Shown here in pieces: positions 1 through 52,360 of a DNA stretch of 64,000 bases (the first letter of the stretch is position 1; each line of letters opens with the position of its first letter). The stretch lies in assembly GCA_000091205.1 (NCBI GenBank), contig AP006502.2. One strand, 5' to 3'. The DNA is from Cyanidioschyzon merolae. Its lineage: Eukaryota. The notes under the pieces were generated by a model, which was not told the origin of the DNA, searched no databases, and saw only the letters and a program-made list of their open reading frames with translations. The translations under genes were made by a program, and so were the position numbers.

Positions 1-189
1 TCTGATGAACAGCTTACAAGCGGCTTGCGGAAAAAAAGGTGCCCGCGGAACGTCCTCGTAAGTATCGCCCACATGCGCAATGAAAAGATTTCATATACTA
101 GCTGCGGGTAAATTCGTCTGAGGTTGTGCACGCGCATTCGGCGCCGTACGCCGATATATACTTCTGACTGCGCTTCAAAGGCGTGCGAC

Positions 190-906
190 ATGACTGAGGA
201 ACTGCCTCGACAAACAGAACCTCTTACTGAAGAAGAGACGGATCAGGAAAGTGCGTCCGAATTAAAACAAGAAGATATCGCCGAGGCAGCGAGAGAAAGT
301 GGCATTGATCCGAAAGAGCTTGCACAGCAAGCGGCGCTCCTTCAGGCGCATGAGCACGCCGTCGGCGCGGCTGGCGCAGGGGCTGGCCTCCCCGCTCGCC
401 AGTCTCGAGCTGAGAAGAAGACGAGAAAAGCCCTCTCAAAACTTGGACTGAAAAAGGTACCGGGTGTAACGCGGATTGCAGTGAAAAAAGAAGGGACTTT
501 ACTTTTTGTTGTTTCGCAACCCGATGTGTACAAGAGCTCGGCGTCTGACACGTACGTTTTCTTCGGAGAAGCCAAAATTGGTGAGAGTATTGGTGATGCC
601 GGTGCACAGGCCGAGGCAAGGCGCTTCCTAGACTACAGCGCTGACTCTGATCAGTTTGGCCTCGAGGGCAAACTGCGCGACTATCTTGGCGGCGAGAGAG
701 CGGGAGCCGACGGGGCTCCCGGCACACGCTCAGGTCCCAGCGGCGACGTGTCAGAACAGGAAGAGGAAGTTGATGAGACAGGGCTCGACCCTAAGGACAT
801 TGAGCTCGTTGTCCAGCAGGCGGATGTTTCCCGAGCACGTGCAGCACGAGCGTTACGCAATAACAATGGTGATATTGTGAATGCTATACTTGAGTTGACG
901 GTATAA
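190..906 (+). CDS. Nascent polypeptide-associated complex subunit alpha (NAC domain plus C-terminal UBA-like domain)
   Basis: ORF 124..906. ATG at 190 (MTEELP...) is the likelier start. The NAC-domain core 'KKTRKALSKLGLKKVPGVTRIAVKKEGTLLFVVSQPDVYKSSASDTYVFFGEAKIGE' and the C-terminal UBA-like 'DIELVVQQADVSRARAARALRNNNGDIVNAILELT' are diagnostic of eukaryotic NAC-alpha. Confidence 0.85.
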   Translation: MTEELPRQTEPLTEEETDQESASELKQEDIAEAARESGIDPKELAQQAALLQAHEHAVGAAGAGAGLPARQSRAEKKTRKALSKLGLKKVPGVTRIAVKKEGTLLFVVSQPDVYKSSASDTYVFFGEAKIGESIGDAGAQAEARRFLDYSADSDQFGLEGKLRDYLGGERAGADGAPGTRSGPSGDVSEQEEEVDETGLDPKDIELVVQQADVSRARAARALRNNNGDIVNAILELTV

Positions 907-1111
907 AGAAAGAATTTGATGACGCCTTACGGGGTATGCTTTGAGATCGGGGCTGTTCTGCTGGACCACACGATCCTGGAGCCGATGCGTTTCATGCTCA
1001 CCGAGAAATCTGAGAGCGCATCACGGGAAGGAACCGAAGGCGCTCACGTCACTCAATGCGTGACGTTCTGACTTTGCATCACCGGATCCAGACACTTTCT
1101 TCAAGCCTTTT

Positions 1112-2371
1112 TTAACCCAATCCGTCGTGATTGCGAGCTCCGTAGAGTTCACGCAACAGATAATATGCAAAGTTGCTCGAGAAGCTCCCAATATCCGTGA
1201 CAAAAATTGAGACTTGCGAACTCGGCACGATCGCATAGCGCGGATTACTTACTCCGACTCTGGATTGGAACGGGCTAATGCTTTCATATGGCAACAGAGT
1301 GCTGGGCACAAAAGATTTTTCGATAGCGGAAATATCATGAGGGAACCGCTCAGAAATCCTGTGCAACTCCGTCAGAACTAGGACAGGAACAGCGTGCGCA
1401 CGCGCTGCATCCGCAGCAAGGCGACACGTTGGGCGCGTGATCACGGAACCCTCCGCAAGGACTACTTCGGCGCGGATGATCAGCTTGTGCACCCGAGCCA
1501 TAATTGCATATACTGCAGCGTCCGTAATCAACGTCGTATCAATACCGCGCCCAGCAAGCTCGCTTGCTAGCCTGTGACCACTGCACTCTGGCGCAGCTTC
1601 AGATACGAAGACCTTGAAACGGCGTTTTTTCCCAGCTTCTAATAGGAAATGCATAATTAAAGGCGAATACCCGCAGGTCAAAACCACCTCTTCCGAATGT
1701 ATATGCTCGCTGCTTTGCTGTGCTATCTGACTGTCAGCGCTCTCGAGCTCGTTCAGAAGTTCGACAACCGTTTCTTCTTGTCGAAATTCTTCCACGGTAC
1801 AGCTTTCTAGAAGCCGTCGACTGGAGTCGTTCCTCTCCTGGAAGATATTTGAGCTGTCGCTGGGACCCCTGCTGCCGAGTACCGAGACAGCCACGAAGGT
1901 CTCGAGTTCAGCGCCTGCAGTGGAGCTCGCGAATCCTTGAACACGTCGTTGTCTGAGAAGTAGTAGCCGCTTCAAAACATTTTCCAGTACGTACTGGCAA
2001 AGAATGTTCGAGAATAGTTTCTGATCATTCAAGAGTTTTGTGAGATCACGCAAAAAAGCCTCTAGGCTCCTCGTTGCACAGTACTGGAGCAGTACACGGA
2101 GCGCGCTTGCTAGTTGGTTACCGAACGGAACGGTATTCGTCTTTGACTTCTTTCCAGATTCGTTCTTCGGTTGCGTTTCTTCAGCAACAGCACGACGAGC
2201 GCTTGCACGGCAGTTGGAAGTGGGATACGTTACGGGCTTCAAAAAAACCGACGTGAAAAACTCCGCTCCGTAAAGACTCTCATACGCTTCATCTAAACTC
2301 TTTAGCAGCTTCAACGCAATTTCCTCGAAGCGTTGATCTTCGGAATCAGCCTCTGCTGAACTTGAAGCCAT
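1112..2371 (-). CDS. Translation initiation factor eIF-2B regulatory subunit (eIF2B alpha/beta/delta fold; beta/delta-like)
   Basis: 419-aa ORF with an N-terminal low-complexity region. The C-terminal half matches the eIF2B_5/MtnA-like fold: 'VVLTCGYSPLIMHFLLEAGKKRRFKVFVSEAAPECSGHRLASELAGRGIDTTLITDAAVYAIMARVHKLIIRAEVVLAEGSVITRPTCRLAADAARAHAVPVLVLTE'. It lacks MtnA active-site features, so I call it eIF2B. Confidence 0.7.
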   Translation of the reverse strand: MASSSAEADSEDQRFEEIALKLLKSLDEAYESLYGAEFFTSVFLKPVTYPTSNCRASARRAVAEETQPKNESGKKSKTNTVPFGNQLASALRVLLQYCATRSLEAFLRDLTKLLNDQKLFSNILCQYVLENVLKRLLLLRQRRVQGFASSTAGAELETFVAVSVLGSRGPSDSSNIFQERNDSSRRLLESCTVEEFRQEETVVELLNELESADSQIAQQSSEHIHSEEVVLTCGYSPLIMHFLLEAGKKRRFKVFVSEAAPECSGHRLASELAGRGIDTTLITDAAVYAIMARVHKLIIRAEVVLAEGSVITRPTCRLAADAARAHAVPVLVLTELHRISERFPHDISAIEKSFVPSTLLPYESISPFQSRVGVSNPRYAIVPSSQVSIFVTDIGSFSSNFAYYLLRELYGARNHDGLG

Positions 2372-2535
2372 CGCTCAGTGAAACCCAGTATCTCAACTAT
2401 GCCAGCCGCGTCTTGTTCTCTGCTGGAATGGGACGGATCCGAGCTTGCGCGGCATCAATAGCAACGTGACAGTATGTCCCTGGACCACGGAGGATGGAAT
2501 CGCACCGTCATGCGCCTCATCATTCTTTATAGCCT

Positions 2536-3322
2536 TTAAGCTCAGTTGTGTTCGACCCTTGGATGAGTATAATGAAATGGTATTTCGCTGGTTATAGAAG
2601 ATGCGTTCGAAGAGTGCTAATTTTCAAAACTAAAAAATCGAGGGGAAAGGTAAGGACACGGAAGTCGGGGATCCTGGAGTCCCAGTATCGCCAGGTGCCG
2701 GAAAAGAAACAAAAAATCTTCTTCTCGTCGACAATGGATCCAAGAAGAGCAAGTGACAATGAAGAAGAGGAGGGTAGATAGGCGAGAAAAGGTGCTTGCG
2801 CGGTGGGGCCACGGCGAGATTGTAGTGGCGCCGATGGGTCGTCTTCTAAGAATCAATGCAAAGGTGACTTCAATCAGCTGTAGAGCATTCAAGGAGTTTG
2901 TGAACCGCGACTTCAACACCACCATCAATGTCAGATGGAGCGTGATGCGGAAGTCTCGGTTCATGGACTCCATGATTGGTTGCCTCTGGTTGAAATCATC
3001 AATTCAAGGATTACTAGAACTCGTCTCATCGGCGCCCCTACAATCTCGCCGTGGCCCCACCGCGCAAGCACCTTTTCTCGCCTATCTACCCTCCTCTTCT
3101 TCATTGTCACTTGCTCTTCTTGGATCCATTGTCGACGAGAAGAAGATTTTTTGTTTCTTTTCCGGCACCTGGCGATACTGGGACTCCAGGATCCCCGACT
3201 TCCGTGTCCTTACCTTTCCCCTCGATTTTTTAGTTTTGAAAATTAGCACTCTTCGAACGCATCTTCTATAACCAGCGAAATACCATTTCATTATACTCAT
3301 CCAAGGGTGGAACACCACTGAG
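2536..3322. repeat. Foldback element: two A-family units in tail-to-tail inverted orientation (about 790-bp palindrome)
   Basis: The plus-strand ORF 2548..2781 and minus-strand ORF 3082..3318 encode the identical 77-aa peptide. The outer about 290 bp of each arm are near-perfect reverse complements (for example 'gacaatgaagaagaggagggtagataggcgagaaaaggtgcttgcgcggtggggccacggcgagattgtag' pairs with its reverse complement at about 3045-3118). The inner about 100 bp per arm are about 70% identical. The centre encodes 'FKEFVNRDFNTTINV'. Confidence 0.85.
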
Positions 3323-6300
3323 GTGAGAGACTATAATCTAACTCTCAGTTACCGTGATTGCTCTCATGCCACAAATGGATAGACCTGGAGAAGCCCGTAC
3401 TACAGTTGGACGGCGCACGAATCTACCAACTCAGCACCCGCGCTGTTCCGATTTGTGCTGACGAATTGGGCGGGAAAGATGAAACAGTTTGAGAAAGGAC
3501 GTTCTAGCTCAAATGCCGCAGTGGAGCGCAGAAAACGCTGCGGTTGTTAATAGGGATTCTCTAAATAAGGATGAAGAGTGCAATACGTCTAACGCAAACT
3601 GCTCAGAGCGAGTGAAGAGAACAAAGAAAGCCATTGTGAAACCTCGTCTACCAGTCCGGTGTGCGCTGCTTCAAAGCCCTCCGCGAAAGCGATACAAAAA
3701 TGTTTCAACGCTTTCTTCGATTCAAGTGGCTGGCGCTCTAGGAGCTCCGAGAGTTCCACAAGAAACTCCACTAAAAACGCAACATAGATGTTACAGACTG
3801 AAGCTCGACGCTAAGGATAAAGGCACTCGCCGGCAGAGTCACGGCGATGGCGACGGCTTTAGCCCCGAAAGCTCAGATATCAGGCGCAATGTCCTGCACA
3901 AACCACTCCAACTTTCGAGTGGTCTTGAATGTGACGGCATCAATAGGCAGCGGAGTTCCCCGCCGGACCCTGTGTCCAACACAACCGAGCTCTTGGAACG
4001 GCCAAGTGATGGAGACGTGGTTTGTACTGTTCCTCGTGAGGTTCTGATTCTTTGCAATGAAAAGGACGAATTTTTCCAAGCAATATTCAGATGACTTTGT
4101 TTTTCCCGTCGCCGCTATCTGGAAAGAGTCACTCAGGGCAACCTCTTGCTGGCGGCGGCCCGATTTTTGCGTCACATGATGGGCAACTAGCGAGCCGGTC
4201 AAGAGTTGAATCACAGCAACGATTGCCTGTTATTTAATGAGTGGTACATATAGCCTCAACTGCTTGGTATAACCTTTCCATTGTTTCGGAGAATCAGGTT
4301 CGTTCAACGCAGGCTCGGTTCCGGATAATTTCACAGATCAGAATCGAGCAGATAGCATCATGAATTTTCTTCCACAAAATGACTGGCATTAGGATCATTA
4401 TAACCGACGCAAAACATAAACTCCGTTAATCCTATCTCAAAATCGTAGCAGTGAGTTCCGGAAACCTTGGCTTGAGTACCATTGTTCTGAATGTGCTTTT
4501 TCTCATGGATATGAAACAAACTAAGACGTCCTGTAAATTAGAGAAATGTAGCGGCAAGCCTCTATTCTCTGACTTGTCGCTCACGAGAAAAAATACCTTT
4601 CATGTGTCATTCAGTCATTACTACGTTCAGCAGCTGGATGAATCGCCTTTCTTGCAGCGCTTGTCCTGAACTTCGTGCATCCAAAACAGAATGTCTGAAT
4701 GTTTCTCTATGCGACCGTTTCTCCATGTATCTATTCCACCACAAGCGTTCTCGAGGTGATATCTTCACAAACGTTGCAGGATGTCAGCCTTCGGTAGCAC
4801 TGATACAAGCGATGATGAAGAGGCATGCGTGGGCAAAAATAGAAGAGCCCTGCTATTGGAAACACTCGCAAGTTGTACAAAACATTATTGATTTCGAACT
4901 GAAACGCAAACGGCTTTTGCAGAAAAGTCTGGTGCTCGCCTCACTGGATTAGACATCATCCGGGAAAAACGGTAAACCTATATAAGGAAAATGATAGAGG
5001 GGCGAACAACTGTTCGAAAAGAAGGCAAAAGCGAGCATTAAGAGAAAATCAGCCCCAGCAGAAATGCAATCGTGTTATTGCCCTCTAATCAGCAATCGAA
5101 CTGGATCGTTGGATACCTCACCCAGCGTGGTAACACTCTTCATGATCTGCTCTTCGCACCCTCTTCTGTCATTCTCCGAGACAACTTCGCCGTACATCTT
5201 TGAAAAGCGAGAGGAGAGAACGATACTCAGATTGGCACTGAGCTACTCTTCGTGCCAGGATATACCCCTGGTTCAATGCAGGAGAGGCGTATATTTAAGT
5301 GCCAGACGCGGTCTTAACGGACATGGATCCATGGAAGAATCATTAGCATCCATGTCTTTGTTCGTTGAGAAATCGTTCTCTGCCATCGCAAGCCTTAAAC
5401 TGATATGTTCCTTTTCCTACCGTGTGCGGGAGGGAGCGGAGTGGCGCTTCGGATTGTAACACGTGCTCGCTACGAAGGAAGTGACCAAAATGTACTCGAG
5501 AAATAAAAAGTACATATCCAGGAAAAGTGACCTTCGCACTGATCATCCCCGAAATGCGTCCGATCCGCGAGGAATAGACCTGGTATGGAGTATAGCAATA
5601 GCATGGAAATCGCCATACCCAGCAAGGGGAAAATACGAGGAAAGAGAAGGGGATGCATCAACCAGACAAAGTAGAGAATTGTACCCCGAAACAAGCACAA
5701 ATAACGACAGGACAAAAACTATAGAAGTGGAAAGATCAGTCCAAAATCGCTGCAAAGGCATAAACACTAATATACATGAACAGGAAGAGAATTCCAGAAA
5801 CTGAAATTCGGAGCACCAGTAAGGATCATATAACTTCGTTTTCGAGGAGGGCTCTCATAGCTTTTCTCTTACCGTGGCACAGCTCGTCATGCAAATGCTC
5901 GTGCAAGTTCCGGATGCGCATTGCGAGCTGCCCTCATTCCACACGGATTTTTGGACAAATCCTTCGTTCTTCTACCAGCGTTCGCGACAGAACGTGAAAC
6001 ACGGCCTGATCGCAGTATACAAGATCTGCACGCACGCTTGCGAGAAAACATTTGTACGTCATGAAATCACATCAGCAATCGGAATATCCATGACGAAAGA
6101 GAAAAATATCGAATCAACCTGAAAAATGAAACGATACGCGAGACAATCTCGAGTGCTTCAATCGGTTCACCGTTTGGAAGTTAGAACCGTTTTAACCTAC
6201 CTTACTGGCCTAAAAAAGTGGTGACTGATAGAACGGTTTCTTGGAGTGCCGAAGGAGGCAAATGACAAGCTGATGGTGACAGATGGGATCGAGGTGCCAA

Positions 6301-6390
6301 CGACGCCGGAAGCGATATCGCACCGAGAGCGAGACTCGCGTCAGATCGCCCGCGCCTATCGAGTGGATCTCGGACTCGGATCGCCACACG

Positions 6391-6715
6391 TCCTATCCAT
6401 ACGATGGCGTCAACGGGATACCTGCCTTGCTTGCGATTCGCGCACCACTATATTCGCGTCGAGAGAGCCCTCGAGAGGATCGGCACAAGTCTTATCCATA
6501 CGATGGTGTCAACGGGATACCTGCCTTGCTTGCATTCCGCGCCCCATTATATTCGCCTCAAAAGAGCCCTCGAGAGGATCGGCACAAGTCTTATCCATAC
6601 CATGGCGTTAACGGGGTACCTGCCTTGCTTGCATCTCTCGCCCCATTATATTTGCCTCAAGGGAGCCCTCGAGAGCGAAGCAGACTCCGTCCACCAATGC
6701 GGGTGCACTCGACTC
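6391..6715. repeat. 99-bp tandem repeat, about 3.3 units (minisatellite; in-frame 33-codon unit)
   Basis: The unit 'tcttatccatacgatggtgtcaacgggatacctgccttgcttgc...agagccctcgagaggatcggcacaag' starts at 6391, 6490 and 6589, giving a period of exactly 99 bp. Overlapping ORFs exist in two frames (6283..6720 with repeating 'SYPYDGVNGIPALLA...REDRHK'). Confidence 0.85.
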
Positions 6716-9445
6716 CGTAAGCGTCTGTTCGAAGCGGCCCTCATTCGTCACTTCAACGCCCACTTATCACTGCAGACTCCTCTGTACTATACGTTCCACT
6801 CAGTGGGCTACGGCCGGTCTCTGGCAGCGAGCACGGGTCACTCGAACAGCTTTCCGAAGATCATGGGTAGAGCTGATTCGACGTTTCGCCTTACAGGGCA
6901 GGAAATCGTAAGGAGTACGCAGGGAGAATGGAGACCGACGGAAGACCAGGCTGCATGCACTTTGTGAAACTTAAACTTGACTCAACTAACGATGCTGATT
7001 TTCAACCGTCCAAGATAAATGAAGAGAAACACATCGCGCGGTTGCCTTATCTCAAAATCAAGAGAGCGGAATGAAAGAGTTGAACAGAATCCAGATGATA
7101 GTGTGCAAATTTTCGAGGGCTTTATACTAGAGTGAAGCATGATGGGCGTCAGGAGGCACACGAACGTTTGGAATGACGGCGTCAGGGCCCAAATCAATGC
7201 CTTTAGCACCGCATCGAAGAGACTAATGCTTTGCACGGTTATTCAGAGAGTCCATCAGCGTCCAACAGGCGCATGCGGACGATCCTTGGAAGGTGCACAT
7301 GAGACAGCGCTAGCGTGATCATCAGTACCGATTATAGGGAAGCATGAAACACGCATTAACCAACTTTTTAAATGAATTCGAAAAGCAAGTATCTGGTAAG
7401 TCGCGTCGTTTGGTGGAAACCTACGAAGTTGTACAAGCTATAGAACGCAAAAACTGTACTTGCTCTCCTTCGACGAGGGCGTACAACGAGTGCAAGATTC
7501 GATTCTGAAAGATTCACTCCGATGCATTCAGAAAGACATACAGTCTTCACGAGCACGGGTGCGCGTTGAATCTGGTAGACACGAAAAAGAGAAACTGAGA
7601 CGGATGCGCTTGCCGATGTACAGCAAGCTGAACGATCCTCAGATCGATAGAAAATCGAGCGTGAGAGGTTTTCTACGGTTTGAATCCACTCGCAACCATG
7701 CGCACAAGCAGTTTCCGAACGGAGACTCGAATGCTTCGATCAACATCCGGCGACCTTGTGCTTCCGGAGCGTCCAGTGGCCTTTTGCAGAAGGGTCCTGC
7801 ATTGGTATCCCCTAGTACTCATTGTGGGCATTGGGATGAGACGCGGAAGACTTGCGGTTAAACAAAATTCGATGGCCTGGACACATGGGATTCGATTCTC
7901 CCACTGAGCGAGGCAAATGTATGGCGCAGTTCAGCAGTATGGAATGGCAGGTGCGTAGAATATACAGAACGCAAGAGATATCCTTGCGCAATCGGTGAAC
8001 GATAACTATGCTGGATTATTCGATATTGCTGATTATACTGAACGCCTCGCTTGATGTGGCAGGAACTTTACAATTTTGGAAACGCACTCGGGCTTTCGTA
8101 TGCTGCGCTTTGCTTGGATCCAAAAATTGTAAGCACTGATAAATGAGACTGCTCTCTCGAGGTGCGTCGATCAAATGCGCATCTACGAGCATGCTCCAGG
8201 TATCTCCTCTCGCCCCGGAACGGCACAGCTCTGATTTTTAGCAGCGCGATTTACGTGGAGATCAGGTTTTGTTTCCGGGCTCGTAGTGCTCTGCGAAATG
8301 TCCTCTTACGTAAGGTTTTAAATGCTATTCAGAGGGAGCAGCTTCCATGAGAAGCGATGCGCGTAGACTCTCATGGACATGTTCGTAGCCTTTTTTAATG
8401 ACGCAGAATCCCATTGGACGAGATCCATTGGGAAGAGAGAGTCCACTAGCTCATTTCGTGGACCAAAACGAGCTTTCTTTTTGATAAATGCAGACAGAGC
8501 TGCATAGCGTACGTTGTGCGAGGCGCTGCCCTGTTTTTGAGCCACTGGGTGAGGCATCGGTGCTTCATTTACGCTTTTATCGCAAAGACATCAACAAACG
8601 ATATTTCACACAACTTTTGATTCAGTCCACATCAGGAGAAGACGACCAGTTTGCTCATTCGCGCATTTCGATGACTGGCCAACTTCAGCGGCTGGCGTCC
8701 ACACGCGACCACCGACCGTTTCACTGGCAGGTTTTCTACAATGAGACCATCCCTTGGAGAGGACAACACCCGTCGGACTTCAGCGTAAGGGCGTTTGCTC
8801 TGTAAGCCATTCGCACCTTGCCCCATGCTCACTGCAAGGAGCAACGTCCCAACCTAATATGCAGTGTATCAATTTTCATTTGACCAGCACTTTGCGTACC
8901 CGTGCATTAAACCTTCCAAACGTCCTTTTGAAATTGTAGTTTTGATACAGAGAGCAAGACTCGCGAACACGCGAAAGCTGTATATAAAAAATTGTACCGA
9001 GTAACGCTATCCGTGGTGCATCAAATTTCCAATTTTTCCAGAAACATTTCCCTGCAAAACGCATATTGTCGGTGAGAGGGTGATAAATCTCACCAGAGTC
9101 CCTCGGACACGAGAATACTGCTGTTATCCCCTTGGAAAGGGTTTCAAACTACCCTAGCAAGGTCAGCTTTCCATCTGGTCCACATCAGTTCTGCTATCGG
9201 GCGTGGCAGCACGGTCAGTCTAATAACTGCAGAGATTCCCGAACTACATTCTTCTGTCATCTGCTTCCCTTGTATCGGATTTATATATGGACTGGAATCA
9301 AGTGCCCCAATGATCACTCGATCGAACTCGCCCATGCCGACCGCATCAAGGCGCTGTGTTTGCGCGCCCTGGGGGCCTGCATTTGGTAGAAGCGCGGCAC
9401 CTTGAAAACTCAGCTTCGCGCGTTTTTGCTCAAGGCTTTCGACTG

Positions 9446-16759: not shown

Positions 16760-17300
16760 ACGTTATAAAAAGCGATTTCGCGGTTTATGGCATATGCATT
16801 CAAAGTGCGTTCATTTTCAAAAATAAATAGCCCAAAGAAAAGGGATGGGTATGGGATTCCACGATCCTGGAATCCTTGTGAATATCAGCTGCCAAACAAC
16901 AATAAAAGTCCACTTCTCATCGACCATTGAGCGAAAAAGAGCAAGCGACGAAGAAGAAAAAGGGAAATATGGGCGAGTAAGTGTGTGTGCCCGACGGGAC
17001 GACGACGAGACCGTTGTGGCACAGAGGACACGATTTCGAGGAATCCCTGTATTAATGAGATCGATCGGCCGTGGCGCATTCACGGAGTTCGTGAACCGAG
17101 ACCTCAACGCCGCCAGCAATATTAGAAGATGTACGGTGCTGAAGACGAGACTGGAGAAGCTGCGACGATCCGACTTTGTGGGACAGCCTCTCAGGCTCAA
17201 AACGTCCGAGGAAATTTGAAGCCAAGATCATCCGGTCGGTGGAAACAGGTTAGGAGGCGTCTGTGAGTGAGTACGCATTTACCCGCCATGCACCTAGAAC
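16760..17300 (+). mobile_element. A-family repeat copy carrying a TnpB/Fanzor-like RuvC-III motif relic (degenerate, non-autonomous)
   Basis: ORF 16845..17219 is '...SVCARRDDDETVVAQRTRFRGIPVLMRSIGRGAFTEFVNRDLNAASNIRRCTVLKTRLEKLRRSDFVGQPLRLKTSEEI*'. It is homologous at DNA level to 2536-3322, 38960-39512 and 51825-52360. It begins with a small hairpin 'ggattccacgatcctggaatcc'. Divergence from copy 3 rises upstream of 16850. Confidence 0.55.
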
Positions 17301-17339
17301 CCTTTTGGTTTTACTGATCACATGCCGCGGACGCTTGGT

Positions 17340-18215
17340 CGGAGGCCGAACTGGTCTATGATTAGAATCCAGCGCTGAACTGCTCGTTCTGTCTTTCCAA
17401 TATTTTCCGAACTCTTACGAGGTGTCCAGTGCCAACATACCAAGCGCACCAATAAGCGCCTACGAATTCAAAAGTCCTGGGAGGACTCCCAGTCGTGTGT
17501 GTTCGGAGTGGCCCCTGCGACGCTTCGCCGCTGACATCCATTACTTCACCGGAATCAAGGTTATTCGCAACGCGCTCAGACAACGATTCCTAAAATAGCC
17601 CGTAGCATTGTCCAATGCATACATACAGGCATCCAGTCTTCTCCGTTCCGTTTGTGTCGCACGTTCAATTCAGGCATTCGCCAGGTGTTCGGTCTCTCTT
17701 TTATTGATGCAACTCGTGGGCGCTGCCATTTGCGCTGACTGGATTGACGAAGAGAACAAGTCGACGTCGCCCGATGACCATTCCTTTCCGTGCTCGTCCC
17801 GAAACGCTGCTGAGCTCGTCACTTGCAATCATCGAATCGGTTCAAAGGCGAACCTTCTATGTTTGTTGCAATCGACGAGACGGAGCTCAACAGCAGCGCG
17901 ATACCTCGCACGGGATATGCTCCCAGGGGCGCACATCTCTTCTGCTAGCACGCCAGCGAGTCCTGGACTTTGTCGAACGTCGTCGCAGCGATCTGTCCGA
18001 GCGCAGAGCGCATCAGCGCTTTGTACGAAGTGCGGCTGGGGGATCGGAGTTTCGCAACTCCTGCACCAGCCTGGATTTCGTATACGGAACGTGTTTCATA
18101 ATCGAAATATCGCGTTCCACGGATCCTCGATCGAACGGGACAGTATGCGCGTGCGTATGCAGCTGACGGAGTATTCGCTCAGAAGAGTCGCGCAGATGAA
18201 GCCCGTGAGCGTAGG
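17340..18215 (+). repeat. B-family interspersed repeat, copy 1 (about 0.9 kb), directly abutting the A-family copy
   Basis: About 98% identical to 21480-22355 and 39512-40400. It gives identical ORFs in three places (for example 'MSERVANNLDSGEVMDVSGEASQGPLRTHTTG...' on the minus strand). Confidence 0.85.
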
Positions 18216-19386
18216 GCAAACCTCCGTGGAAAACGCAAATGATCATCGCAGTAAAAGACGCAATTTCACCGCATTGTGAGATCCGAAAATCGCACACATG
18301 CTTCCGTCACTACCATGAGACGCCGCCAGACTACATCTGAGATTGATAAGTCTACAGAGCAGGTGCCAAGAAAGTGCCGAACCAACGAGAAAATCAAAAA
18401 CATATGCGGGTCAATCTCGAGTGCTGCATGAAGCGCATCTCGTGAGCGTTGGATCCGTTGTGTTCTGAGCGCACTTTTCAAGAAAAGTGGGTACTGATAG
18501 AAGGGATTCTAGGCTTACGAGAACACATTAGAGTACTAAGGCTCGTGCGGAAGGTGCTTGGCTGGTTTCCATGGCACTGCGCTGGAGTCGCCAGAGGTTT
18601 TCATTCCATGCAGCCACGAAGCATATATACGTCAACTTCTGGAATGTGTTGGAACACGCAATGGCCAATAATCCGCCTCGTTTTATGGTAGGGTTTGACG
18701 CTGGACGTACTGCAGGGTGCAGCTGCTGCACACTTGCTCTTGTAACGAGAGTGCAAATCCATAGCAGTATTTGGTTCTGTATGATTTTCGTCGTTTCGCT
18801 GAGGACGGCATGGACACATCCCGAGCATGTCCGCGCGCTGAAGCAGCTAAAGAAGATGGGAATGACTAGGAGACAGGTGCAGAAGATGGTATATGGTAAG
18901 CTACCTTAACGTCAGACGGTACGGCAGTCGACGGAAAGAAACGTGCAACCGTGTGAACGTATCTGAAAGTGTACGCGCAAGCACTTTCTGCACCGCGACT
19001 GGAACACTTTGATCAAATTCCGGAAATGTATCGTACTTTAAGAATATTAATCATTTTTGTGGCGAGCAAACCTTCGAGGCCATTATCTCATACTCATTAT
19101 GGGCATGTTGATGAAACGCTAAAGGCTTGCGACGAAACAAAGTCATTACCCAGTAGAGATGGTGTTGGATTCTAGCCAAGGTCAAGCACGCGTATGGTGC
19201 GATATGGTATGACCCAGCGAAACAACAAGTTCGGGTCACCGTATTTATATCTGTATAGTGGGAGCAGTATTCCTGGGCAGCTGGCGAACGAAAATCGTGT
19301 TTCTTCATTCCATATTTCTGGGTACACGGCAAGTTTAGACTGTAGCGGTGTTGGCATGAATGGCAAACGACATCACGCGCTGAGAA

Positions 19387-21479: not shown

Positions 21480-22355
21480 CGATCCCCGCCAGATTAGAAT
21501 CCAGCGCTGAACTGCTCGTTCTGTCTTTCCAATATTTTCCGAACTCTTACGAGATGTCCAGTGCCAACATACCAAGCGCACCAATAAGCGCCTACGAATT
21601 CAAAAGTCCTGGGAGGACTCCCAGTCGTGTGTGTTCGGAGTGGCCCCTGCGACGCTTCGCCGCTGACATCCATTACTTCACCGGAATCAAGGTTATTCGC
21701 AACGCGCTCAGACAACGATTCCTAAAATAGCCCGTAGCATTGTCCAATGCATACATACAGGCATCCAGTCTTCTCCGTTCCGTTTGTGTCGCACGTTCAA
21801 TTCAGGCATTCGCCAGGTGTTCGGTCTCTCTTTTATTGATGCAACTCGTGGGCGCTGCCATTTGCGCTGACTGGATTGACGAAGAGAACAAGTCGACGTC
21901 GCCCGATGACGATTCCTTTCCGTGCTCGTCCCGAAACGCTGCTGAGCTCGTCACTTGCAATCATCGAATCGGTTCAAAGGCGAACCTTCTATGTTTGTTG
22001 CAATCGACGAGACGGAGCTCAACAGCAGCGCGATACCTCGCACGGGATATGCTCCCAGGGGCGCACATCTCTTCTGCTAGCACGCCAGCGAGTCCTGGAC
22101 TTTGTCGAACGTCGTCGCAGCGATCTGTCCGAGCGCAGAGCGCATCAGCGCTTTGTACGAAGTGCGGCTGGGGGATCGGAGTTTCGCAACTCCTGCACCA
22201 GCCTGGATTTCGTATACGGAACGTGTTTCATAATCGAAATATCGCGTTCCACGGATCCTCGATCGAACGGGACAGTATGCGCGTGCGTATGCAGCTGACG
22301 GAGTATTCGCTCAGAAGAGTCGCGCAGATGAAGCCCGTGAGCACAGGGTACGGCA
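21480..22355 (+). repeat. B-family interspersed repeat, copy 2 (B only, no A part)
   Basis: Near-identical to 17360-18215. It starts at 'agattagaatccagcgctgaactgctcg'. The left flank is unique sequence, namely the 5' end of the 19387..21387 gene region. Confidence 0.85.
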
Positions 22356-38199: not shown

Positions 38200-38830
38200 A
38201 ACAAGAAGATGCTATCCGCGCCAAATACCGATATTGTGGAAGACTGCTCACGGTCAATGGTTAAGAACGAACTGTTGATCACCGTTCGCGGAAGGCAAAA
38301 GCGATGATCGTAGACGCCACAGGCGTCTCTGTCTCTCAGCACATTGTTCGCGTGGTTCTGAAAACACTGGGATACAGTTGAATTTCACGCATGGCTATTT
38401 TGCATCGAAATCGCAACCACGAGAACTTTCCTGGAAGGTCACGATCTGTATGAAGCACAGCAACGCCGGTTCATTGTTTCATTCGATGAGATTTGCTTCG
38501 GAAGAAACGATCGGAGCGTATATGGGTATTCACGGAAGGGGACCCGTTTTGCGTACGATCGAGCTCGTGGGCAACAAGGATATCATGTTTTGTTCTAGCT
38601 GCAGAGCATTCATTTGGAGGCCTCAGTTTCGCTCGTAGAGAACGCTCATCCAACAGCTCCAATCACATCGTCCAAACATTGAAGACTTTTCACGTGACAT
38701 CTGGCAGTGTCTTTCCACTGGACACCGTGGCATTTCACCATTCCCCTCGTGTTCGAGCTTTTGCCGATTCTATCAGGGTAGATGTGCTTTTCATTCCTCC
38801 GTACTCTTCGTGGTTCAACCTCATCTAAAG
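38200..38830 (+). pseudogene. Tc1/mariner (IS630-like) DDE transposase relic, frameshifted
   Basis: HTH-like 'IVDATGVSVSQHIVRVVLKTLGYS'. The ORF 38493..38828 ends '...LDTVAFHHSPRVRAFADSIRVDVLFIPPYSSWFNLI*'. This matches the Tc1/mariner C-terminal signature 'DNAPIH...VLxLPPYSPDLNPIE' that includes the third catalytic acidic residue. Stops and frameshifts lie upstream. Confidence 0.55.
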
Positions 38831-38959: not shown

Positions 38960-40500
38960 AAAGGCAAAAACATGTACGTTCATTCTGAAGAAATGAGAAA
39001 TCCAAGGGAACGTTATGGATATGGGATTCCACGATCCTGGAATCCTTGTGAATATCAGCTGCCAAACAACAATAAAAGTCCACTTCTCATCGACCATTGA
39101 GCGAAAAAGAGCAAGCGACGAAGAAGAAAAAAGGAAATATGGGCGAGTAAGTGTGTGTGCCCGACGGGACGACGACGAGACCGTTGTGGCACAGAGGGCA
39201 CGATTTCGAGGAATTCCTGTATTGATGAGATCGATCGGCCGTGGCGCATTCACGGAGTTCGTGAACCGAGACCTCAACGCCGCCAGCAATATTAGAAGAT
39301 GTACGGTGCTGAAGACGAGACTGGAGAAGCTGCGACGATCCGACTTTGTGGGACAGCCTCTCAGGCTCAAAACGTCCGAGGAAATTCGAAGCCAAGATCA
39401 TCCGGTCGGTGGAAACAGGTTAGGAGGCGTCTGTGAGTGAGTACGCATTTACCCGCCATGCACCTAGAACCCTTTTGGTTTTACTGATCACATGCCGCGG
39501 ACGCTTGGTCGGAGGCCGAACTGGTCTATGATTAGAATCCAGCGCTGAACTGCTCGTTCTGTCTTTCCAATATTTTCCGAACTCTTACGAGGTGTCCAGT
39601 GCCAACATACCAAGCGCACCAATAAGCGCCTACGAATTCAAAAGTCCTGGGAGGACTCCCAGTCGTGTGTGTTCGGAGTGGCCCCTGCGACGCTTCGCCG
39701 CTGACATCCATTACTTCACCGGAATCAAGGTTATTCGCAACGCGCTCAGACAACGATTCCTAAAATAGCCCGTAGCATTGTCCAATGCATACATACAGGC
39801 ATCCAGTCTTCTCCGTTCCGTTTGTGTCGCACGTTCAATTCAGGCATTCGCCAGGTGTTCGGTCTCTCTTTTATTGATGCAACTCGTGGGCGCTGCCATT
39901 TGCGCTGACGGGATTGACGAAGAGAACAAGTCGACGTCGCCCGATGACGATTCCTTTCCGTGCTCGTCCCGAAACGCTGCTGAGCTCGTCACTTGCAATC
40001 ATCGAATCGGTTCAAAGGCGAACCTTCTATGTTTGTTGCAATCGACGAGACGGAGCTCAACAGCAGCGCGATACCTCGCACGGGATATGCTCGCGGGGGC
40101 GCACATCTCTTCTGCTAGCACGCCAGCGAGTCCTGGACTTTGTCGAACGTCGTCGCAGCGATCTGTCCGAGCGCAGAGCGCATCAGCGCTTTGTACGAAG
40201 TGCGGCTGGGGAGATCGGAGTTTCGCAACTCCTGCACCAGCCTGGATTTCGTATACGGAACGTGTTTCATAATCGAAATATCGCGTTCCACGGATCCTCG
40301 ATCGAACGGGACAGTATGCGCGTGCGTATGCAGCTGACGGAGTATTCGCTCAGAATAGTCGCGCAGATGAAGCCCTTGACCACAGGGTACGTTACCGGTC
40401 GCGGAAACCGGAGCGAGCATCCAGCGGAACCTTATGTACCCGTCCAGCTCATGTACTGAGCCATGAAGCGAGCGTTCACGTGCTACAGGCCGGCCTTCGA
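38960..40500 (+). mobile_element. Composite A+B repeat, copy 3 (A-family unit with RuvC-III-like motif followed by B-family unit with the longest 3' tail)
   Basis: 39020-40390 is about 98% identical to 16850-18215, with small indels. Upstream of 39020 the A part is still homologous to copy 1 but much more diverged. The 3' tail 40390-40500 ('...atgtactgagccatgaagcgagcgttcacgtgc') is absent from copies 1 and 2 but present in the diverged B copies. Confidence 0.8.
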
Positions 40501-45889: not shown

Positions 45890-47104
45890 ATGAATCGGAA
45901 CAGTCGTTTAACAGCACAGAGCACAGTGTTTATAGGGCCCAAGGAGGGCAGCAGCAGCGTCGGGTTGTTTCTCGCTCGCCTCTGGCAACGACGACGACTG
46001 CACAGGCGGGTTCGTGGCGCGAGCCGCAGCCTCCAGGCGACCGCTACACAGCCGCAGTGGTCGCTGGTGCAGGTTGCGCGGCGAGTGCTCTTCCCTCCAC
46101 TATGGGTAGAGCTTGCGCGAGCGCACGTGCTTGCAAAGTTTTCGAGGGCGTTCGAGCAAGTACCGCGCAAGCGACGTGACGGGACGGCGGCACCCGCCGC
46201 AGTGAGCACGGCAGTGGAAGCGGCAGCGGCACCCAGTCCTTCGCGGAACGCAGCTCGTGGAGGACAGGGCGTTAGCCGTACGCAGCTGCTCGGGCGAATT
46301 GTGTACGAGTGGGTAGACTACGACCAACGGCGACTCGTTTGCGCCCGTCAGACAGCAGACGGGGTACCGGTGGTGGACCCGCGCTGCTCCGCCATACCGA
46401 GAACGGAGCGCCTGCGGAACAAGTGGCGGCGCCTGCGGGAGCTTTCGGCAGCATCCAGCGAGCGCGAAGCGGCAGACGGCGCGGGACCGCAGACGGACAA
46501 CGTTGCGCTGGTGGGCGCCCCAGCGGGCCCGCCACCAGTCGAAAGCCCGACGGAACAATACGCAGTCGTTAAGCTTGAATCAGGTCCCGGCACACTGCAC
46601 GAGGATACCGAAGAAGATGCTACTCTAGAACGGTGCGCGGGCCCTGCGCTGGCGCGCTGCTGGAGCGCACCCGAGCTGGGCGACGCCGAAGATGATAGCA
46701 CTCGCTATGAACCAGAGCGCTCGCCGCTGGACTATCTGGGGAACGTTCCGCTGCTATTCACCACGAACACCCCTCAGGGCCGTTTGCTTCAAAGGCGTTT
46801 GCGCGTCGCACGCCTGCAGATGCACCGCCTTGTACGGGAGGGTGTGCGCACGCTCATGCAGAGTGCGCCGCTGCGCCTAGCGCTGGGCGCTCGTCTACGC
46901 TGCTTAGACGGAGCGGCAGCGTACGAATCGCAACGAGAGGCCAGACAAGTCACGAGCGGCCCTGTTAGAGACGCCTCGCCAGCAGCGTGGAAGCGCTTCT
47001 CGGGCGACGGTGTGCTCCGCAGCGTCTCACAAGCGGCGCTCGCAACGCTAGGCACGCTGCGGTGTGAGTGGCCGTTCCACGTTCGTCGTCTGCGGGACCA
47101 GTAG
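45890..47104 (+). CDS. Ala/Arg/Pro-rich low-complexity hypothetical ORF in a GC-rich island (may be non-coding)
   Basis: 404-aa ORF. Long ORFs are open in several frames on both strands across 45.9-46.7 kb, as expected for very high GC. There is no recognisable domain. Confidence 0.25.
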   Translation: MNRNSRLTAQSTVFIGPKEGSSSVGLFLARLWQRRRLHRRVRGASRSLQATATQPQWSLVQVARRVLFPPLWVELARAHVLAKFSRAFEQVPRKRRDGTAAPAAVSTAVEAAAAPSPSRNAARGGQGVSRTQLLGRIVYEWVDYDQRRLVCARQTADGVPVVDPRCSAIPRTERLRNKWRRLRELSAASSEREAADGAGPQTDNVALVGAPAGPPPVESPTEQYAVVKLESGPGTLHEDTEEDATLERCAGPALARCWSAPELGDAEDDSTRYEPERSPLDYLGNVPLLFTTNTPQGRLLQRRLRVARLQMHRLVREGVRTLMQSAPLRLALGARLRCLDGAAAYESQREARQVTSGPVRDASPAAWKRFSGDGVLRSVSQAALATLGTLRCEWPFHVRRLRDQ

Positions 47105-48730
47105 GTGTGCATAGCGAAACTGATTTTTAACATATCTAACAAAATAACACGACGACGGAAAGATAAGTGGATATTCGTGTAGGAATCTCAGTTCGATGGA
47201 CTAACTGCTTCACGATTTAAACGGGGAACTGGAGATGCCCGCAAGTTTTTGGTTTCGCAGAACGTTTTCACCAGGGATGCCCTATGGTGCGATTCATACG
47301 AACGTTTGGGAAAGCGTCCACCTTTCTACCTACCCCTGAATTCCACTGTCGATTCTTATCCTCGGAGAGTTGCGCAGATGCGGTGCGTCGGGACCGCGCA
47401 CGCAGGACACGTGTCGAGAATCCGGGCGCCTGCGGGCGCTCAGACTCGAGCCGCTGGCTGTTTGCGTGCCATAAGCGCGACAGCCTGCACAGACGCGTAA
47501 ATGCATAAGTACATGGGTGCACGGATGCATCCTTGCTCCGTCATGCATCAGCACCGTGCCTGCGGGCTGGTGCGCGGCCTGAGGCGTAACGACGCAGACC
47601 CTTTCTAGTGCTCGACAGGAGTGGAGCGCGATGCGCGCGAAGGCTTCCACCAAGATCGGCACCGCATCAGGATCCAGTCCATGTCCCAGCGACGACGAAA
47701 CACAGCAGAAACAGCCTCAGCATGGGGATACCGCTCACAATATCCAGTTGTATAAGATCCAAGTCGCGAGCGCTCGGGCAAGGGGTGATGGACCGCGGCT
47801 CCTACACGAAGCGTGGCAGCCTTTTAGGGACCTCCTGCAGCGAACTCGTCCAGAAAGAAATATGGACCATGCTGTTGGCGCTTCCGAATCGGCGATACGA
47901 GCTAGTGCGGCATCTTCTGCCGCTGCAAGACATGCTGCAGACGATGAGTCCTGGGGCGGCACCAGAAAAGCGGTTTTACAACAAAGGCGCTGCGATAACC
48001 AGCGAATCCTGGCCAGGTGCGCGGCGGGCTATACCAGAGACAAGGCTGCAAGCTTTGCAGTAATTCAACATACGAGACAGATGGGTGAAGTATAGTACCG
48101 TATTCCAGTGGGCAGCATAAAATTCTCATTGCCAGAGTGGGCTTTATTTGTATGTGCTACAGGTTCTCAGCCGTTCACTTTTCCGTGCCGACGCTGTACG
48201 GGCCTTGACAGGTACTACCCGAACTCGTTCCCCTATTTATGCATTGAAGATGCTTTTTGTTCACTGTTCAAATGAACTATCGTGGTGTTCTGTGGTCTAA
48301 GTTCCGAAAAATAGACTCGTACTCGCAGTGAAAGTTTTCACTTGCACGGTAAGCAACACCAAAAGAACCGCAATTTGTAGAAATAATAAGAATGAATTTA
48401 GGATATTTAGGGACAATTTATGAAAGTGTTGCGCGCGTCGCGACACTGATGTCCAGCGTCGAAATTCCGCTCGTGAATCCATGGCTCTAGAATCACGGCG
48501 TGCTTCGAGTGCCCACGACTTCTCCTCGCCGGGGTCATATTTGAGTAAAATTCATATTACTGCTACGATCTTCGAGCACGGAGATTACTGCAGCTGTAAT
48601 CTCGCTAATAATATCTCGACGACTGTTGCTCCCGGCGACTGCGTTAAGCTGCAACTGCGGCGATTTGCAATAAATATGCTTTTTCAATTGGTGTTTCTAG
48701 CGCCTTTTCTTCGTAGGCTGAAATCGATTC

Positions 48731-51824: not shown

Positions 51825-52360
51825 CATTTAATGTTTTTTTTCGTGGTTTAGAGCAAATGCTCTCGAAGTGCGTTCATTTACAAATGTAAAAAGGCTAAGG
51901 TATAGAGATGGAAGTCGCGGATCCTAGAGGGCCTCATTGCCGGCTGTCCGAAAACAAGGAAAAAATCCTCTTTTCGCCGTTCATCGAGCAAGGGAAAGCG
52001 CGCGGCGGCGAAGAAAAAGAGGACAGGTAGACGAGAAAAGGTGCTCGCCTGACGGGACGAGGTCGAGACTGTAGTAGAACAGAGGACACAAGTTCGAGGA
52101 ATCCTTGCAATGGTGAGTTCAACCAGAGGCAGGGTACGCATAGAGTTCGCGAACCGAGAGTTTAACGCTGCTATCAACATCGGGAGATGTGCAGTGCTGG
52201 ACAAGAGACCCCCGGAGCTGATACGAGCCGACTTTGTGGGAGAACCTCTCAGGGTCGAATTGTACGGGATGACGTTGCAACCAGTAGTAGGCGGCCGGTC
52301 CAAAAGACGGGAAGGCGTCTGCACGTGAGTGGGTAGACATCCAGTCTACGCTTCTAGGCA
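51825..52360 (+). mobile_element. A-family repeat copy (diverged) with TnpB/Fanzor-like RuvC-III motif relic
   Basis: About 75% DNA identity to 2570-2830 and 16760-17300. It encodes '...DEVETVVEQRTQVRGILAMVSSTRGRVRIEFANREFNAAINIGRCAVLDKRPPELIRADFVGEPLRVEL...' with a stop just upstream, so it is degenerate. Confidence 0.55.

What the first reader, a model, noticed from the sequence alone, without database searches (positions are those of the whole stretch)
2536..3322. About 790-bp foldback built from two A-family units with an identity gradient (outer arms near-identical, centre diverged)
The plus and minus strands encode the same 77-aa peptide because the outer about 290 bp of each arm are near-perfect inverted repeats. 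Towards the centre, identity falls to about 70%. The RuvC-III-like codons sit at the symmetry axis ('...gtgaaccgcgacttcaacaccaccatcaatgtc' facing the reverse complement of 'catgaaccgagacttccgcatcacgctccatct'). This pattern is what arm-to-arm gene conversion of an old inverted duplication produces. The structure lies in the 5' intergenic region of the eIF2B-subunit gene. It could form a large cruciform or hairpin in DNA or RNA, and so be a source of hairpin siRNA or of genome instability.
Basis: seen in the sequence. Interest (0 to 1): 0.55.

Follow-up and report, generated by a model that had tools for sequence, protein, structure and literature searches.

The report
Inverted pair of dead Fanzor-transposon fragments
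An 810-bp palindrome upstream of the eIF2B-beta gene of the red alga Cyanidioschyzon merolae consists of two broken, facing copies of a known Fanzor1 transposon whose arms are kept identical by gene conversion; it is real and neatly documented, but an ordinary kind of genomic relic.

Summary
The foldback is real: 2527-3336, symmetry axis 2931/2932. Identity is a step rather than a smooth gradient. The arms are 100% identical over 271 bp (2555-2825 against 3038-3308), about 79% in the outer 28 bp, and about 70% in the inner 105 bp.

The window is C. merolae 10D. Each arm is a dead copy of the published Fanzor1 element CMe-1A (Bao & Jurka 2013). It keeps the promoter region and about the first 55 codons, fused by a family-wide internal deletion to the C-terminal RuvC-III codons, and is cut off at the axis.

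Environmental contigs from at least four further haplotypes (98.5-99.4% identical) carry the same structure. All 7 variants inside the identical tract (6 SNPs and a 2-bp indel) are mirrored in both arms. One edge mismatch is resolved in opposite directions in two lineages. A 10-site patch copied from left arm to right arm appears in two independent samples. This shows ongoing arm-to-arm gene conversion.

The hairpin-siRNA idea is not supported, because C. merolae lacks Dicer and Argonaute. No inversion, deletion or empty-site variant was seen. Two distant syntenic relatives lack the element.

Verdict: a non-coding transposon relic evolving in concert. New member of a known kind, low to moderate interest.

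The parts
2527..2554 (+). Left arm, outer diverged edge (22/28 matches to the right arm). It begins where homology to CMe-1A starts, at consensus position about 786.
2555..2825 (+). Left arm, 271-bp tract 100% identical to the reverse complement of 3038-3308. It corresponds to CMe-1A about 815-1071: the region upstream of the Fanzor1 ORF plus roughly the first 55 codons. The start codon is lost and stops are present. N-terminal codons DTEVGDPGVPVSPGAGKETKNL lie at 2655-2720.
2823..2828 (+). Family-wide internal deletion junction (CMe-1A about 1071 joined to about 2826), shared by all A units. It coincides within about 3 bp with the inner end of the identical tract.
2826..2931 (+). Left arm, inner diverged zone (about 70% identical to the right arm). 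It holds the C-terminal Fanzor1 codons, including RuvC-III EFVNRDFNTTINVR (2894-2935), and is cut off at CMe-1A about 2940.
2932..3037 (-). Right arm, inner diverged zone, with MNRDFRITLHL at 2964-2932. In haplotypes L002 and L020, sites 2999-3026 have been converted to the left-arm sequence.
3038..3308 (-). Right arm, 271-bp tract identical to the left arm.
3309..3336 (-). Right arm, outer diverged edge.
1112..2371 (-). Neighbouring gene: eIF-2B beta subunit (PF01008; exact match to BAM83246.1 of C. merolae 10D). Its ATG lies 155 bp from the foldback.
3489..4094 (+). Neighbouring, divergently oriented, fast-evolving 201-aa ORF. A syntenic counterpart with a shared C-terminal motif exists in two distant relatives.
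16776..17219 (+). Another A-family unit with the same deletion junction, 64-70% identical to the arms. It is part of a 1.4-kb segment duplicated at 38974-40387.
38974..39440 (+). A-family unit that is a near-duplicate of the 16.8-kb copy. A DDE_3 transposase remnant lies immediately upstream (38493-38828).
51837..52338 (+). A-family unit retaining more of the 3' end (CMe-1A 840-969 plus 2840-3099).

Best explanation
The foldback is a non-coding relic made of two tail-to-tail copies of a short, non-autonomous derivative (the 'A family') of the Fanzor1-encoding element CMe-1A of Cyanidioschyzon merolae.

Each copy keeps the region upstream of the Fanzor1 ORF and about the first 55 codons. One ancestral internal deletion fuses these to the last part of the ORF, which holds the RuvC-III motif. 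Both copies are cut off at the same family coordinate, about 2940, and that point forms the symmetry axis.

Shown: recurrent intrachromosomal gene conversion between the arms keeps a central 271-285-bp tract of each arm identical.

Inferred: the edges of the arms, which conversion tracts reach less often, have drifted to 70-80% identity. Once diverged, they act as barriers to further conversion, and the diverged centre probably makes the palindrome tolerable to replication. The element has no dedicated function. It roughly triples the length of a short divergent promoter region between eIF2B-beta and a fast-evolving gene.

Unresolved: whether the pair began as an inverted duplication of one truncated unit, or as two insertions followed by a symmetric deletion at the centre.
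For: Family identity:
- blastn of the published CMe-1A consensus (PMC3627910, supplement 2) matches positions 786-969 to 2528-2716 (74%, E=5e-27) and to 3335-3147 (E=2e-25).
- It also matches 2903-2939 to 2893-2929 and 2849-2923 to 3021-2951.
- At protein level, CMe-1 residues 2-23 and the EFVNRDFNAAINIR motif are recovered.
- All A units in the window share the same deletion junction. So does a complete A element on another contig, L021 (CMe-1A 795-969 plus 2833-3169). L022 carries a near full-length CMe-1A.

Host: eIF2B-beta equals BAM83246.1 of C. merolae 10D.

Concerted evolution:
- Six environmental contigs span the structure at 98.5-99.4% identity.
- Within 2557-2824, all 6 SNP sites and one 2-bp indel are mirrored in both arms in every contig: 2559/3304, 2617/3246, 2618/3245, 2621/3239, 2682/3181, 2760/3103 and 2788/3075.
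- The tract changes between strains at about the neutral intergenic rate (0.4-1.9% against 0-2.6%), yet the arms differ at 0 sites in every haplotype.
- Edge site 2554/3309 is G/C (mismatched) in 10D, G/G in group A and C/C in groups B and C, so it has been resolved in both directions.
- In L002, 10 right-arm sites (2999-3026) carry the left-arm sequence. The same patch is present in L020, from a different sample.

No outside donor found: a 26-mer from the tract occurs in metagenome contigs only at this locus. The 77-aa tract ORF has one database relative, also from this locus.

Other:
- Homologous recombination is highly efficient in C. merolae (PMC11376382).
- Two distant relatives with the same gene order (eIF2B-beta 46-51% identical) have no inverted repeat or Fanzor sequence upstream, and one has an intergenic region of only 432 bp.
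Against: - The other strains' arms come from short-read metagenome assemblies, in which a repeat could in principle be collapsed. I consider this unlikely. Every mirrored variant except 2682/3181 lies within about 80 nt of an arm-specific site, so k-mers or reads would phase it. The edge and patch events are flanked by arm-specific bases. But I could not inspect reads.
- The inner halves of the two arms are no more similar to each other (70%) than to other family copies (64-71%), so a common origin by duplication is not demonstrated.
- The inner end of the identical tract coincides within about 3 bp with the family's deletion junction. Pure arm-to-arm conversion does not predict this, and it remains unexplained.
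- The polarity of some edge changes is unknown.
- Nothing here tests transcription or any effect on the neighbouring promoters, so 'no function' is an inference.
Confidence: 0.78

Rival explanations
1. The arm identity does not come from arm-to-arm exchange. Either both arms were overwritten by an external family member that shares only the 5' segment (for example a full-length CMe-1A-like element), or the identical tract is a very recent local inverted duplication.
For: The inner boundary of the identical tract (2825/2826) coincides with the family's internal deletion junction. That is exactly where homology to a full-length element would end. The inner halves of the arms are as diverged from each other as from unrelated copies.
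Against: - No third copy of the tract was found in the 64-kb window, in metagenome contigs, or among predicted proteins.
- Other family copies are only 59-69% identical to the tract.
- At least four haplotypes each have internally identical arms that differ between haplotypes at 1-5 sites. An outside donor would have to re-convert both arms separately in each lineage.
- The tract is also flanked on its outer side by diverged family sequence, which a simple recent duplication does not produce.
- The L002/L020 patch copies a left-arm allele into the right arm.
Confidence: 0.1
2. The hairpin is functional. A long inverted-repeat transcript or a DNA cruciform is maintained by selection for pairing, as an siRNA or hpRNA source or as a regulator of the eIF2B-beta promoter. 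On this view the mirrored changes are compensatory substitutions.
For: - The predicted single-strand fold is extremely stable (-434 kcal/mol, z = -53).
- All variants in the stem are mirrored.
- The structure is conserved in all sampled strains and sits in a divergent promoter region.
Against: - C. merolae lacks Argonaute and Dicer (PMC11376382).
- The tract changes between strains as fast as neighbouring non-coding DNA.
- There are no single-sided or wobble intermediates, and a mirrored 2-bp indel is present. This is what conversion predicts, not selection on pairing.
- The centre and the edges are left to decay.
- No Rfam family matches anywhere in the window.
- Distant syntenic relatives do without the element.
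Confidence: 0.06
3. The whole 810-bp structure is itself a mobile foldback or MITE-like element with long terminal inverted repeats, and it inserted here as a unit.
For: Both arms end outward at exactly the same family coordinate (CMe-1A 786), where arm-to-arm and family homology stop together. A 3-bp direct repeat, TCT, can be read at the two flanks. A DDE_3 transposase remnant sits next to another A unit.
Against: - No second copy of the dimer was found in the window or in any fetched locus.
- A 3-bp repeat is weak evidence: about 1 in 64 per register, and several registers are possible.
- Complete A elements are single units of about 590 bp ending at CMe-1A 3169.
- CMe-1A is reported to lack TIRs and recognisable TSDs (PMC3627910).
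Confidence: 0.04
4. Assembly artefact: a single unit was mis-assembled as an inverted pair.
For: Several short-read contigs break inside or at the edge of the repeat (L004-L007, L011-L013, L018, L019).
Against: - The two arms carry arm-specific sequence at both ends: 6 differences in the outer 28 bp and about 32 in the inner 105 bp.
- Six independent contigs from six samples span the whole structure with the same arrangement.
- Contig breaks at repeat boundaries are the expected behaviour of assemblers faced with a real repeat.
- From my own knowledge, the 10D reference was finished to completion with Sanger reads longer than the tract.
Confidence: 0.02

Closest known systems
CMe-1A, the Fanzor1-encoding element of Cyanidioschyzon merolae (Bao & Jurka 2013, Mob DNA 4:12; about 150 copies, about 80% identical to the consensus, no TIRs or TSDs)
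   Same: Both arms align to its consensus at the 5' ORF-proximal region (786-969+) and at the RuvC-III region (2849-2939). The protein motifs of CMe-1 are recovered.
   Different: The arms lack consensus positions 1-785, carry an internal deletion of about 1.75 kb (about 1071 to 2826), and lack the last 230 bp or so. The start codon is lost and the frame is broken. The short 'A' derivative with this junction is not described in that paper, which mentions only TE-N2_CMe, equal to the 5' 635 bp.
Large palindromes homogenised by arm-to-arm gene conversion, such as human Y-chromosome palindromes P1-P8 and plastid inverted repeats (from general knowledge)
   Same: The arms are more alike within a genome than the same arm is between lineages. 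Substitutions appear in both arms. The boundaries of identity are sharp.
   Different: About a thousand times smaller. It is made of transposon debris, contains no functional gene, and has no unique spacer. Instead the centre is diverged arm sequence.
Foldback transposons and MITEs with long terminal inverted repeats
   Same: Transposon-derived inverted arms of a few hundred bp with little between them.
   Different: It is single-copy, has no convincing target-site duplication, and shows no evidence of mobility. The arms are 5' parts of a unit that normally occurs singly.
Inverted-repeat (hpRNA) loci that produce endogenous siRNAs in plants, flies and fungi
   Same: The architecture could give a long perfect dsRNA stem if transcribed.
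   Different: The host has no Dicer or Argonaute. No transcription evidence is available.
Inverted repeats with diverged or spaced centres in yeast (general knowledge: fragility of inverted Alu-type repeats falls steeply with spacer length and divergence)
   Same: Perfect outer arms combined with an imperfect centre of about 210 bp. This configuration is expected to suppress hairpin or cruciform extrusion and so to persist.
   Different: Stability here is only inferred from the absence of rearranged haplotypes. It was not measured.

Membership tests
CMe-1A transposable-element family (C. merolae Fanzor1 element) | Nucleotide homology to the family consensus | tested here: met
   blastn of the published consensus: 786-969 to each arm (E=5e-27 and 2e-25), and the RuvC-III region to each arm (E=9e-5 each). 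Multiple alignment.
CMe-1A transposable-element family (C. merolae Fanzor1 element) | Host genome is C. merolae | tested here: met
   The neighbouring eIF2B-beta protein is identical to BAM83246.1 / XP_005539282.1 of strain 10D.
Functional Fanzor1/TnpB RNA-guided nuclease gene | Complete motif set D-X(125,275)-[TS][TS]-X-X-[C4 zinc finger]-X(5,50)-RD in one intact ORF (Bao & Jurka 2013) | tested here: not met
   Only the terminal RD motif (NRDF) survives in each arm. The part of the ORF that carries the rest of the motif set, including the zinc finger, falls in the internal deletion of about 1.75 kb. The start codon is lost and stops are present. No Pfam hit.
Functional Fanzor1/TnpB RNA-guided nuclease gene | Associated guide (omega) RNA at the 3' end of the element | tested here: not met
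   Both arms end at CMe-1A about 2940 and lack the last 230 bp or so of the element, including everything after the ORF. That the omega RNA lies there is general knowledge about Fanzor systems and has not been shown for CMe-1A.
Palindrome under arm-to-arm gene conversion (concerted evolution) | Arms more similar within a genome than orthologous arms are between lineages | tested here: met
   0 arm-to-arm differences in the tract in each haplotype, against 1-5 differences per 268 bp between haplotypes.
Palindrome under arm-to-arm gene conversion (concerted evolution) | Variants between lineages occur as mirrored pairs, and heterologies are resolved toward either arm | tested here: met
   7 of 7 tract variants are mirrored. 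Site 2554/3309 is G/C in 10D, G/G in group A and C/C in groups B and C. A 10-site left-to-right patch occurs in L002 and L020. Caveat: phasing rests on short-read assemblies.
Mobile foldback element / MITE | Multiple copies of the same dimer with target-site duplications | tested here: inconclusive
   No other dimer in the window or in the fetched loci. Only a 3-bp TCT repeat at the flanks. The complete genome could not be searched.
Hairpin-RNA / siRNA-producing inverted repeat | Host has Dicer and Argonaute, and small RNAs map to the arms | not testable with these tools
   Published work states that C. merolae lacks both proteins (PMC11376382). No small-RNA data are available here.

The most novel reading that the evidence does not exclude
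The identical tract is not just a passive product of recombination. It holds the Fanzor1 promoter region and N-terminal codons of two inward-facing units. On this reading, the pair is maintained because convergent transcription or a DNA hairpin acts as an insulator or regulator in the shared promoter region of eIF2B-beta and its neighbour, in an organism without RNAi. The exact coincidence of the tract boundary with the family's deletion junction would then reflect a functional module, or repeated templating from intact Fanzor1 elements. A milder version: the locus is a natural reporter from which the rates and tract lengths of mitotic gene conversion in wild hot-spring red algae can be read directly.
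Probability: 0.06. Interest if true: 0.55.

Novelty: new member of a known kind. Interest (0 to 1): 0.27.

Why it matters
The finding is mostly a clean, small example of known processes.

- It shows that relics of the Fanzor1 element CMe-1A exist as a short derivative carrying both a 5' truncation and an internal deletion, which was copied several times after the deletion.
- It gives direct population-level evidence that intrachromosomal gene conversion is active in natural C. merolae populations, with events visible on a scale of about 15 to 285 bp. This fits the organism's efficient homologous recombination.
- Practically, the palindrome breaks short-read assemblies at this locus and generates spurious twin ORFs that gene callers annotate.
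- It sits in the promoter region of an essential translation-factor gene, so anyone engineering that locus should know it is there.

Tried and rejected
- Pfam on the arm ORFs and other A-unit ORFs gave nothing meaningful. The Fanzor link came from the motif and then from the published consensus.
- The word-indexed protein search with an A-unit ORF found only three short relatives and no full-length protein.
- Rfam gathering scan of the whole window: no family.
- Search for an external donor of the identical tract: a 26-mer in metagenome contigs hit only this locus. The 77-aa ORF search found only this locus.
- Orthologous loci in more distant relatives lack the element. However, they are so distant (46-51% protein identity) that they bound its age only loosely.
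- I tested whether the two inner halves are each other's closest relatives, which would favour an inverted duplication. They are not distinguishable from other family copies.
- I considered whether the internal 'deletion' could be a splice junction, making the A unit a processed copy. Reading the junction sequence in the alignment, I saw no GT...AG arrangement that reproduces the shared junction, and I dropped the idea.
- I considered collapse of the two arms by assemblers as the source of the mirrored SNPs. I judged it unlikely, because the distances to arm-specific sites are short enough for phasing, but I could not exclude it without reads.

Full report
**Observation.** The repeat finder gives one pair, 2527-2877 and 2986-3336, 351 nt, 94% complementary. 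BLAST of the region against the window gives 2527-3336 against its own reverse complement at 90.3%.

Aligning the arms end to end and comparing mirrored positions (which sum to 5863) shows three zones:
- An outer edge, 2527-2554, with 22/28 matches.
- A perfectly identical tract, 2555-2825 against 3038-3308, 271 bp.
- An inner zone, 2826-2931 against 2932-3037, at about 70% with one 1-nt indel (73/105).

The inner similarity and the outer-edge similarity both lie far outside shuffled controls (z = 9.6; 24/30 against a maximum of 18). The structure is therefore a full palindrome whose centre has diverged, not arms with an unrelated spacer. Identity per 40-nt window runs 40/40 along the tract, then 31/40, 27/40 and 23/35 toward the axis. 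That is a step followed by a mild decline, not a gradient along the whole arm.

The twin 77/78-aa ORFs exist. They are a trivial consequence of the repeat, and the only database relative comes from the same locus in another strain. As single-stranded DNA the region folds into one long hairpin (-434 kcal/mol, z = -53), as any such repeat would.

**Host and setting.** The ORF at 1112-2371(-) carries the IF-2B domain. It is identical to the eIF-2B beta subunit of Cyanidioschyzon merolae 10D (BAM83246.1), which lies on a 1.62-Mb record. The foldback begins 155 bp upstream of its ATG.

On the other side, 152 bp away, starts a divergently oriented 201-aa ORF (3489-4094). It evolves fast but has a syntenic counterpart with a shared C-terminal motif in two distant relatives. 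The foldback occupies 810 of the 1117 bp between the two genes.

**What the arms are.** Bao & Jurka (2013, PMC3627910) describe one Fanzor1 family in C. merolae, CMe-1A. It is 3169 bp long, has about 150 copies that are about 80% identical to the consensus, and has no TIRs or recognisable TSDs. Its consensus and its 734-aa protein are in their supplements.

Comparison of that consensus with the window:
- Consensus 786-969 matches 2528-2716 (74%, E=5e-27) and 3335-3147 (E=2e-25).
- Consensus 2903-2939 matches 2893-2929.
- Consensus 2849-2923 matches 3021-2951.

At protein level, the left arm reads DTEVGDPGVPVSPGAGKETKNL against CMe-1 residues 2-23 (13/22). It also reads EFVNRDFNTTINVR against EFVNRDFNAAINIR (11/14). 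The right arm reads MNRDFRITLHL on the minus strand.

A multiple alignment shows that both arms and the other 'A units' in the window (16776-17219, 38974-39440, 51837-52338) share one internal deletion. It joins consensus position about 1071 (…DEMVV) to about 2826 (EQ…RAKVRG…). A complete element of this kind occurs on an unrelated environmental contig, L021 (about 590 bp; consensus 795-969 plus 2833-3169). A near full-length CMe-1A occurs on L022.

The A family is therefore a short, non-autonomous derivative that was copied after the deletion arose. The two foldback arms are A units that additionally lack everything beyond consensus position about 2940. They are pseudogenes: the start codon is lost, the frame is broken, and only the RD part of the Fanzor motif set remains.

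**Evidence for gene conversion.** Exact-protein look-ups recovered the same locus from many environmental assemblies. Six contigs span the foldback: L001-L003 at 99.3-99.4% identity and L008-L010 at 98.5-98.7%. Others stop inside it or at the tract boundary (L004-L007, L011-L013, L018, L019), as assemblers do at real repeats.

Aligning the spanning contigs gives three results.

1. Inside the tract there are six SNP sites and one 2-bp indel among the haplotypes. Every one is present as a complementary pair in both arms of every contig: 2559/3304, 2617/3246, 2618/3245, 2621/3239, 2682/3181, 2760/3103 and 2788/3075. The tract differs between haplotypes by 0.4-1.9%, similar to nearby non-coding DNA (0-2.6%). 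Yet within each haplotype the arms differ at no site. Arms evolving independently since the haplotypes split would be expected to differ by a comparable number of sites.

2. At the outer edge, site 2554/3309 is mismatched in 10D (G on the left, C-equivalent on the right). It is matched as G/G in group A and as C/C in groups B and C, so the same heterology has been resolved toward opposite arms in different lineages. In those groups the identical tract reaches out to 2541.

3. In L002, ten right-arm sites (2999-3026) carry the left-arm bases, including the non-10D allele at 2856. The same patch is present in L020, which comes from a different sample. This lies in the diverged zone, where the arms share no long k-mers, so it cannot be an assembly cross-over.

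No contig shows the centre inverted or deleted.

Caveat: the other haplotypes come from short-read assemblies. All mirrored variants except 2682/3181 lie within about 80 nt of an arm-specific site, so they should have been phased. I could not inspect reads.

**How it most likely works.**

Shown:
- The arms are dead CMe-1A derivatives.
- They evolve in concert.
- Conversion acts in both directions, with events visible on scales from a few sites at an edge to about 285 bp.

Inferred:
- Repeated non-crossover recombination between the arms homogenises the middle of each arm. This fits the highly efficient homologous recombination of this alga (PMC11376382).
- The ends of the homology, which conversion tracts reach less often, accumulate differences that then block further exchange. 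The identical tract is therefore bounded on both sides by decayed family sequence, and identity declines mildly toward the axis.
- From general knowledge of inverted repeats in yeast, an imperfect centre of about 210 bp should greatly reduce hairpin or cruciform extrusion. This would explain why the structure is stable in all sampled haplotypes.

**Open points.** The origin is unresolved.
- Both arms stop at the same family coordinates at both ends (about 786 and about 2940).
- The shared inner end favours inverted duplication of one truncated unit, or a symmetric deletion at the tip of a hairpin formed by two full units.
- The shared outer end favours two complete 5' ends, that is, two insertions.
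- The inner halves are no closer to each other than to other copies.

The inner boundary of the tract coincides within about 3 bp with the family deletion junction. This would be expected if an intact element had once served as a conversion donor. No third copy was found, and re-conversion from outside in every haplotype is unparsimonious. I record it as unexplained.

Hairpin siRNA is not supported: C. merolae lacks Argonaute and Dicer. Selection for pairing is unlikely. The stem changes at the neutral rate, shows no one-sided intermediates, includes a mirrored indel, and its centre and edges decay. No Rfam family matches.

Two distant relatives with the same gene order (eIF2B-beta 46-51% identical) have no inverted repeat and no Fanzor-related sequence upstream. 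One has an intergenic region of only 432 bp. This is consistent with a lineage-specific insertion into a short bidirectional promoter region.

**Comparison and verdict.** The locus belongs to the CMe-1A family by sequence, but it is not a Fanzor gene. It behaves like the much larger palindromes that are homogenised by arm-to-arm conversion. It is not shown to be a mobile foldback element or an hpRNA locus.

It is a new example of known things, and the population evidence for conversion is its most useful aspect. Interest is low to moderate.

Noticed in passing
window 38493-38828 (+): A DDE_3 (PF13358, E=4.9e-9) Tc1/mariner-type transposase remnant ending '...IPPYSSWFNLI' lies about 150 bp upstream of the A unit at 38974. 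This is reminiscent of the Mariner-plus-Fanzor1 elements described in other species, whereas CMe-1A is reported as unclassified.
   Followed up: partly
window 16805-18216, 38974-40387, 21492-22348: A 1.4-kb segment (an A unit plus about 1 kb downstream) is duplicated at 97.9% identity. Its last 860 bp or so occur a third time at 99+% identity. The ORFs inside have no Pfam hit. This could be a recently active element or further gene conversion.
   Followed up: partly
window 6739-7589 and 18550-19089 (+): Further, much more diverged Fanzor1 (CMe-1) protein relics were detected by tblastn (aa 314-624 at 29-34% identity; aa 521-702 at 27%). Together with the A units, the window holds about six Fanzor-derived fragments.
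   Followed up: no
window 6378-6675: A tandem repeat of about 99 bp in three copies (84-89% identity) lies just upstream of the Fanzor relic at 6739.
   Followed up: no
window 52613-52800 (-); L022 788-978: An inverted fragment matching CMe-1A 84-265 (the TE-N2_CMe part of the consensus) lies close to an A unit in the window, and another lies just upstream of a full-length copy on L022. This suggests a recurrent association between the two repeats.
   Followed up: no
window 1-6000 compared with L001, L008, L009: Divergence between 10D and the environmental haplotypes is mosaic. L008 and L009 are 0.6-2.6% diverged left of the foldback, 0-0.5% at 3337-4094, and 2.6% at 4095-5990. L001 shows roughly the opposite pattern. 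This looks like recombination between strains, with a block boundary at or near the foldback.
   Followed up: partly
window 3489-4094 (+); L014 2838-3557; L015 3916-4524: The 201-aa ORF next to the foldback has no Pfam domain and is highly diverged. It keeps its position, orientation and a C-terminal motif (vC.V...eDeFF..I) in two distant relatives, so it is probably a real, fast-evolving gene.
   Followed up: partly
CMe-1A consensus 3110-3169 (PMC3627910, supplement 2): By eye, the 3' end of the published consensus, after the stop codon, contains a 7-bp GC-rich hairpin (GCCGCCA...TGGCGGC) followed by a T-rich run. This is a possible terminal structure or RNA 3' end of the element. The foldback arms lack this part.
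   Followed up: no
window 46001-48000 and 58001-62000: These are local GC-rich stretches (0.58-0.64, against a window average of about 0.52).
   Followed up: no
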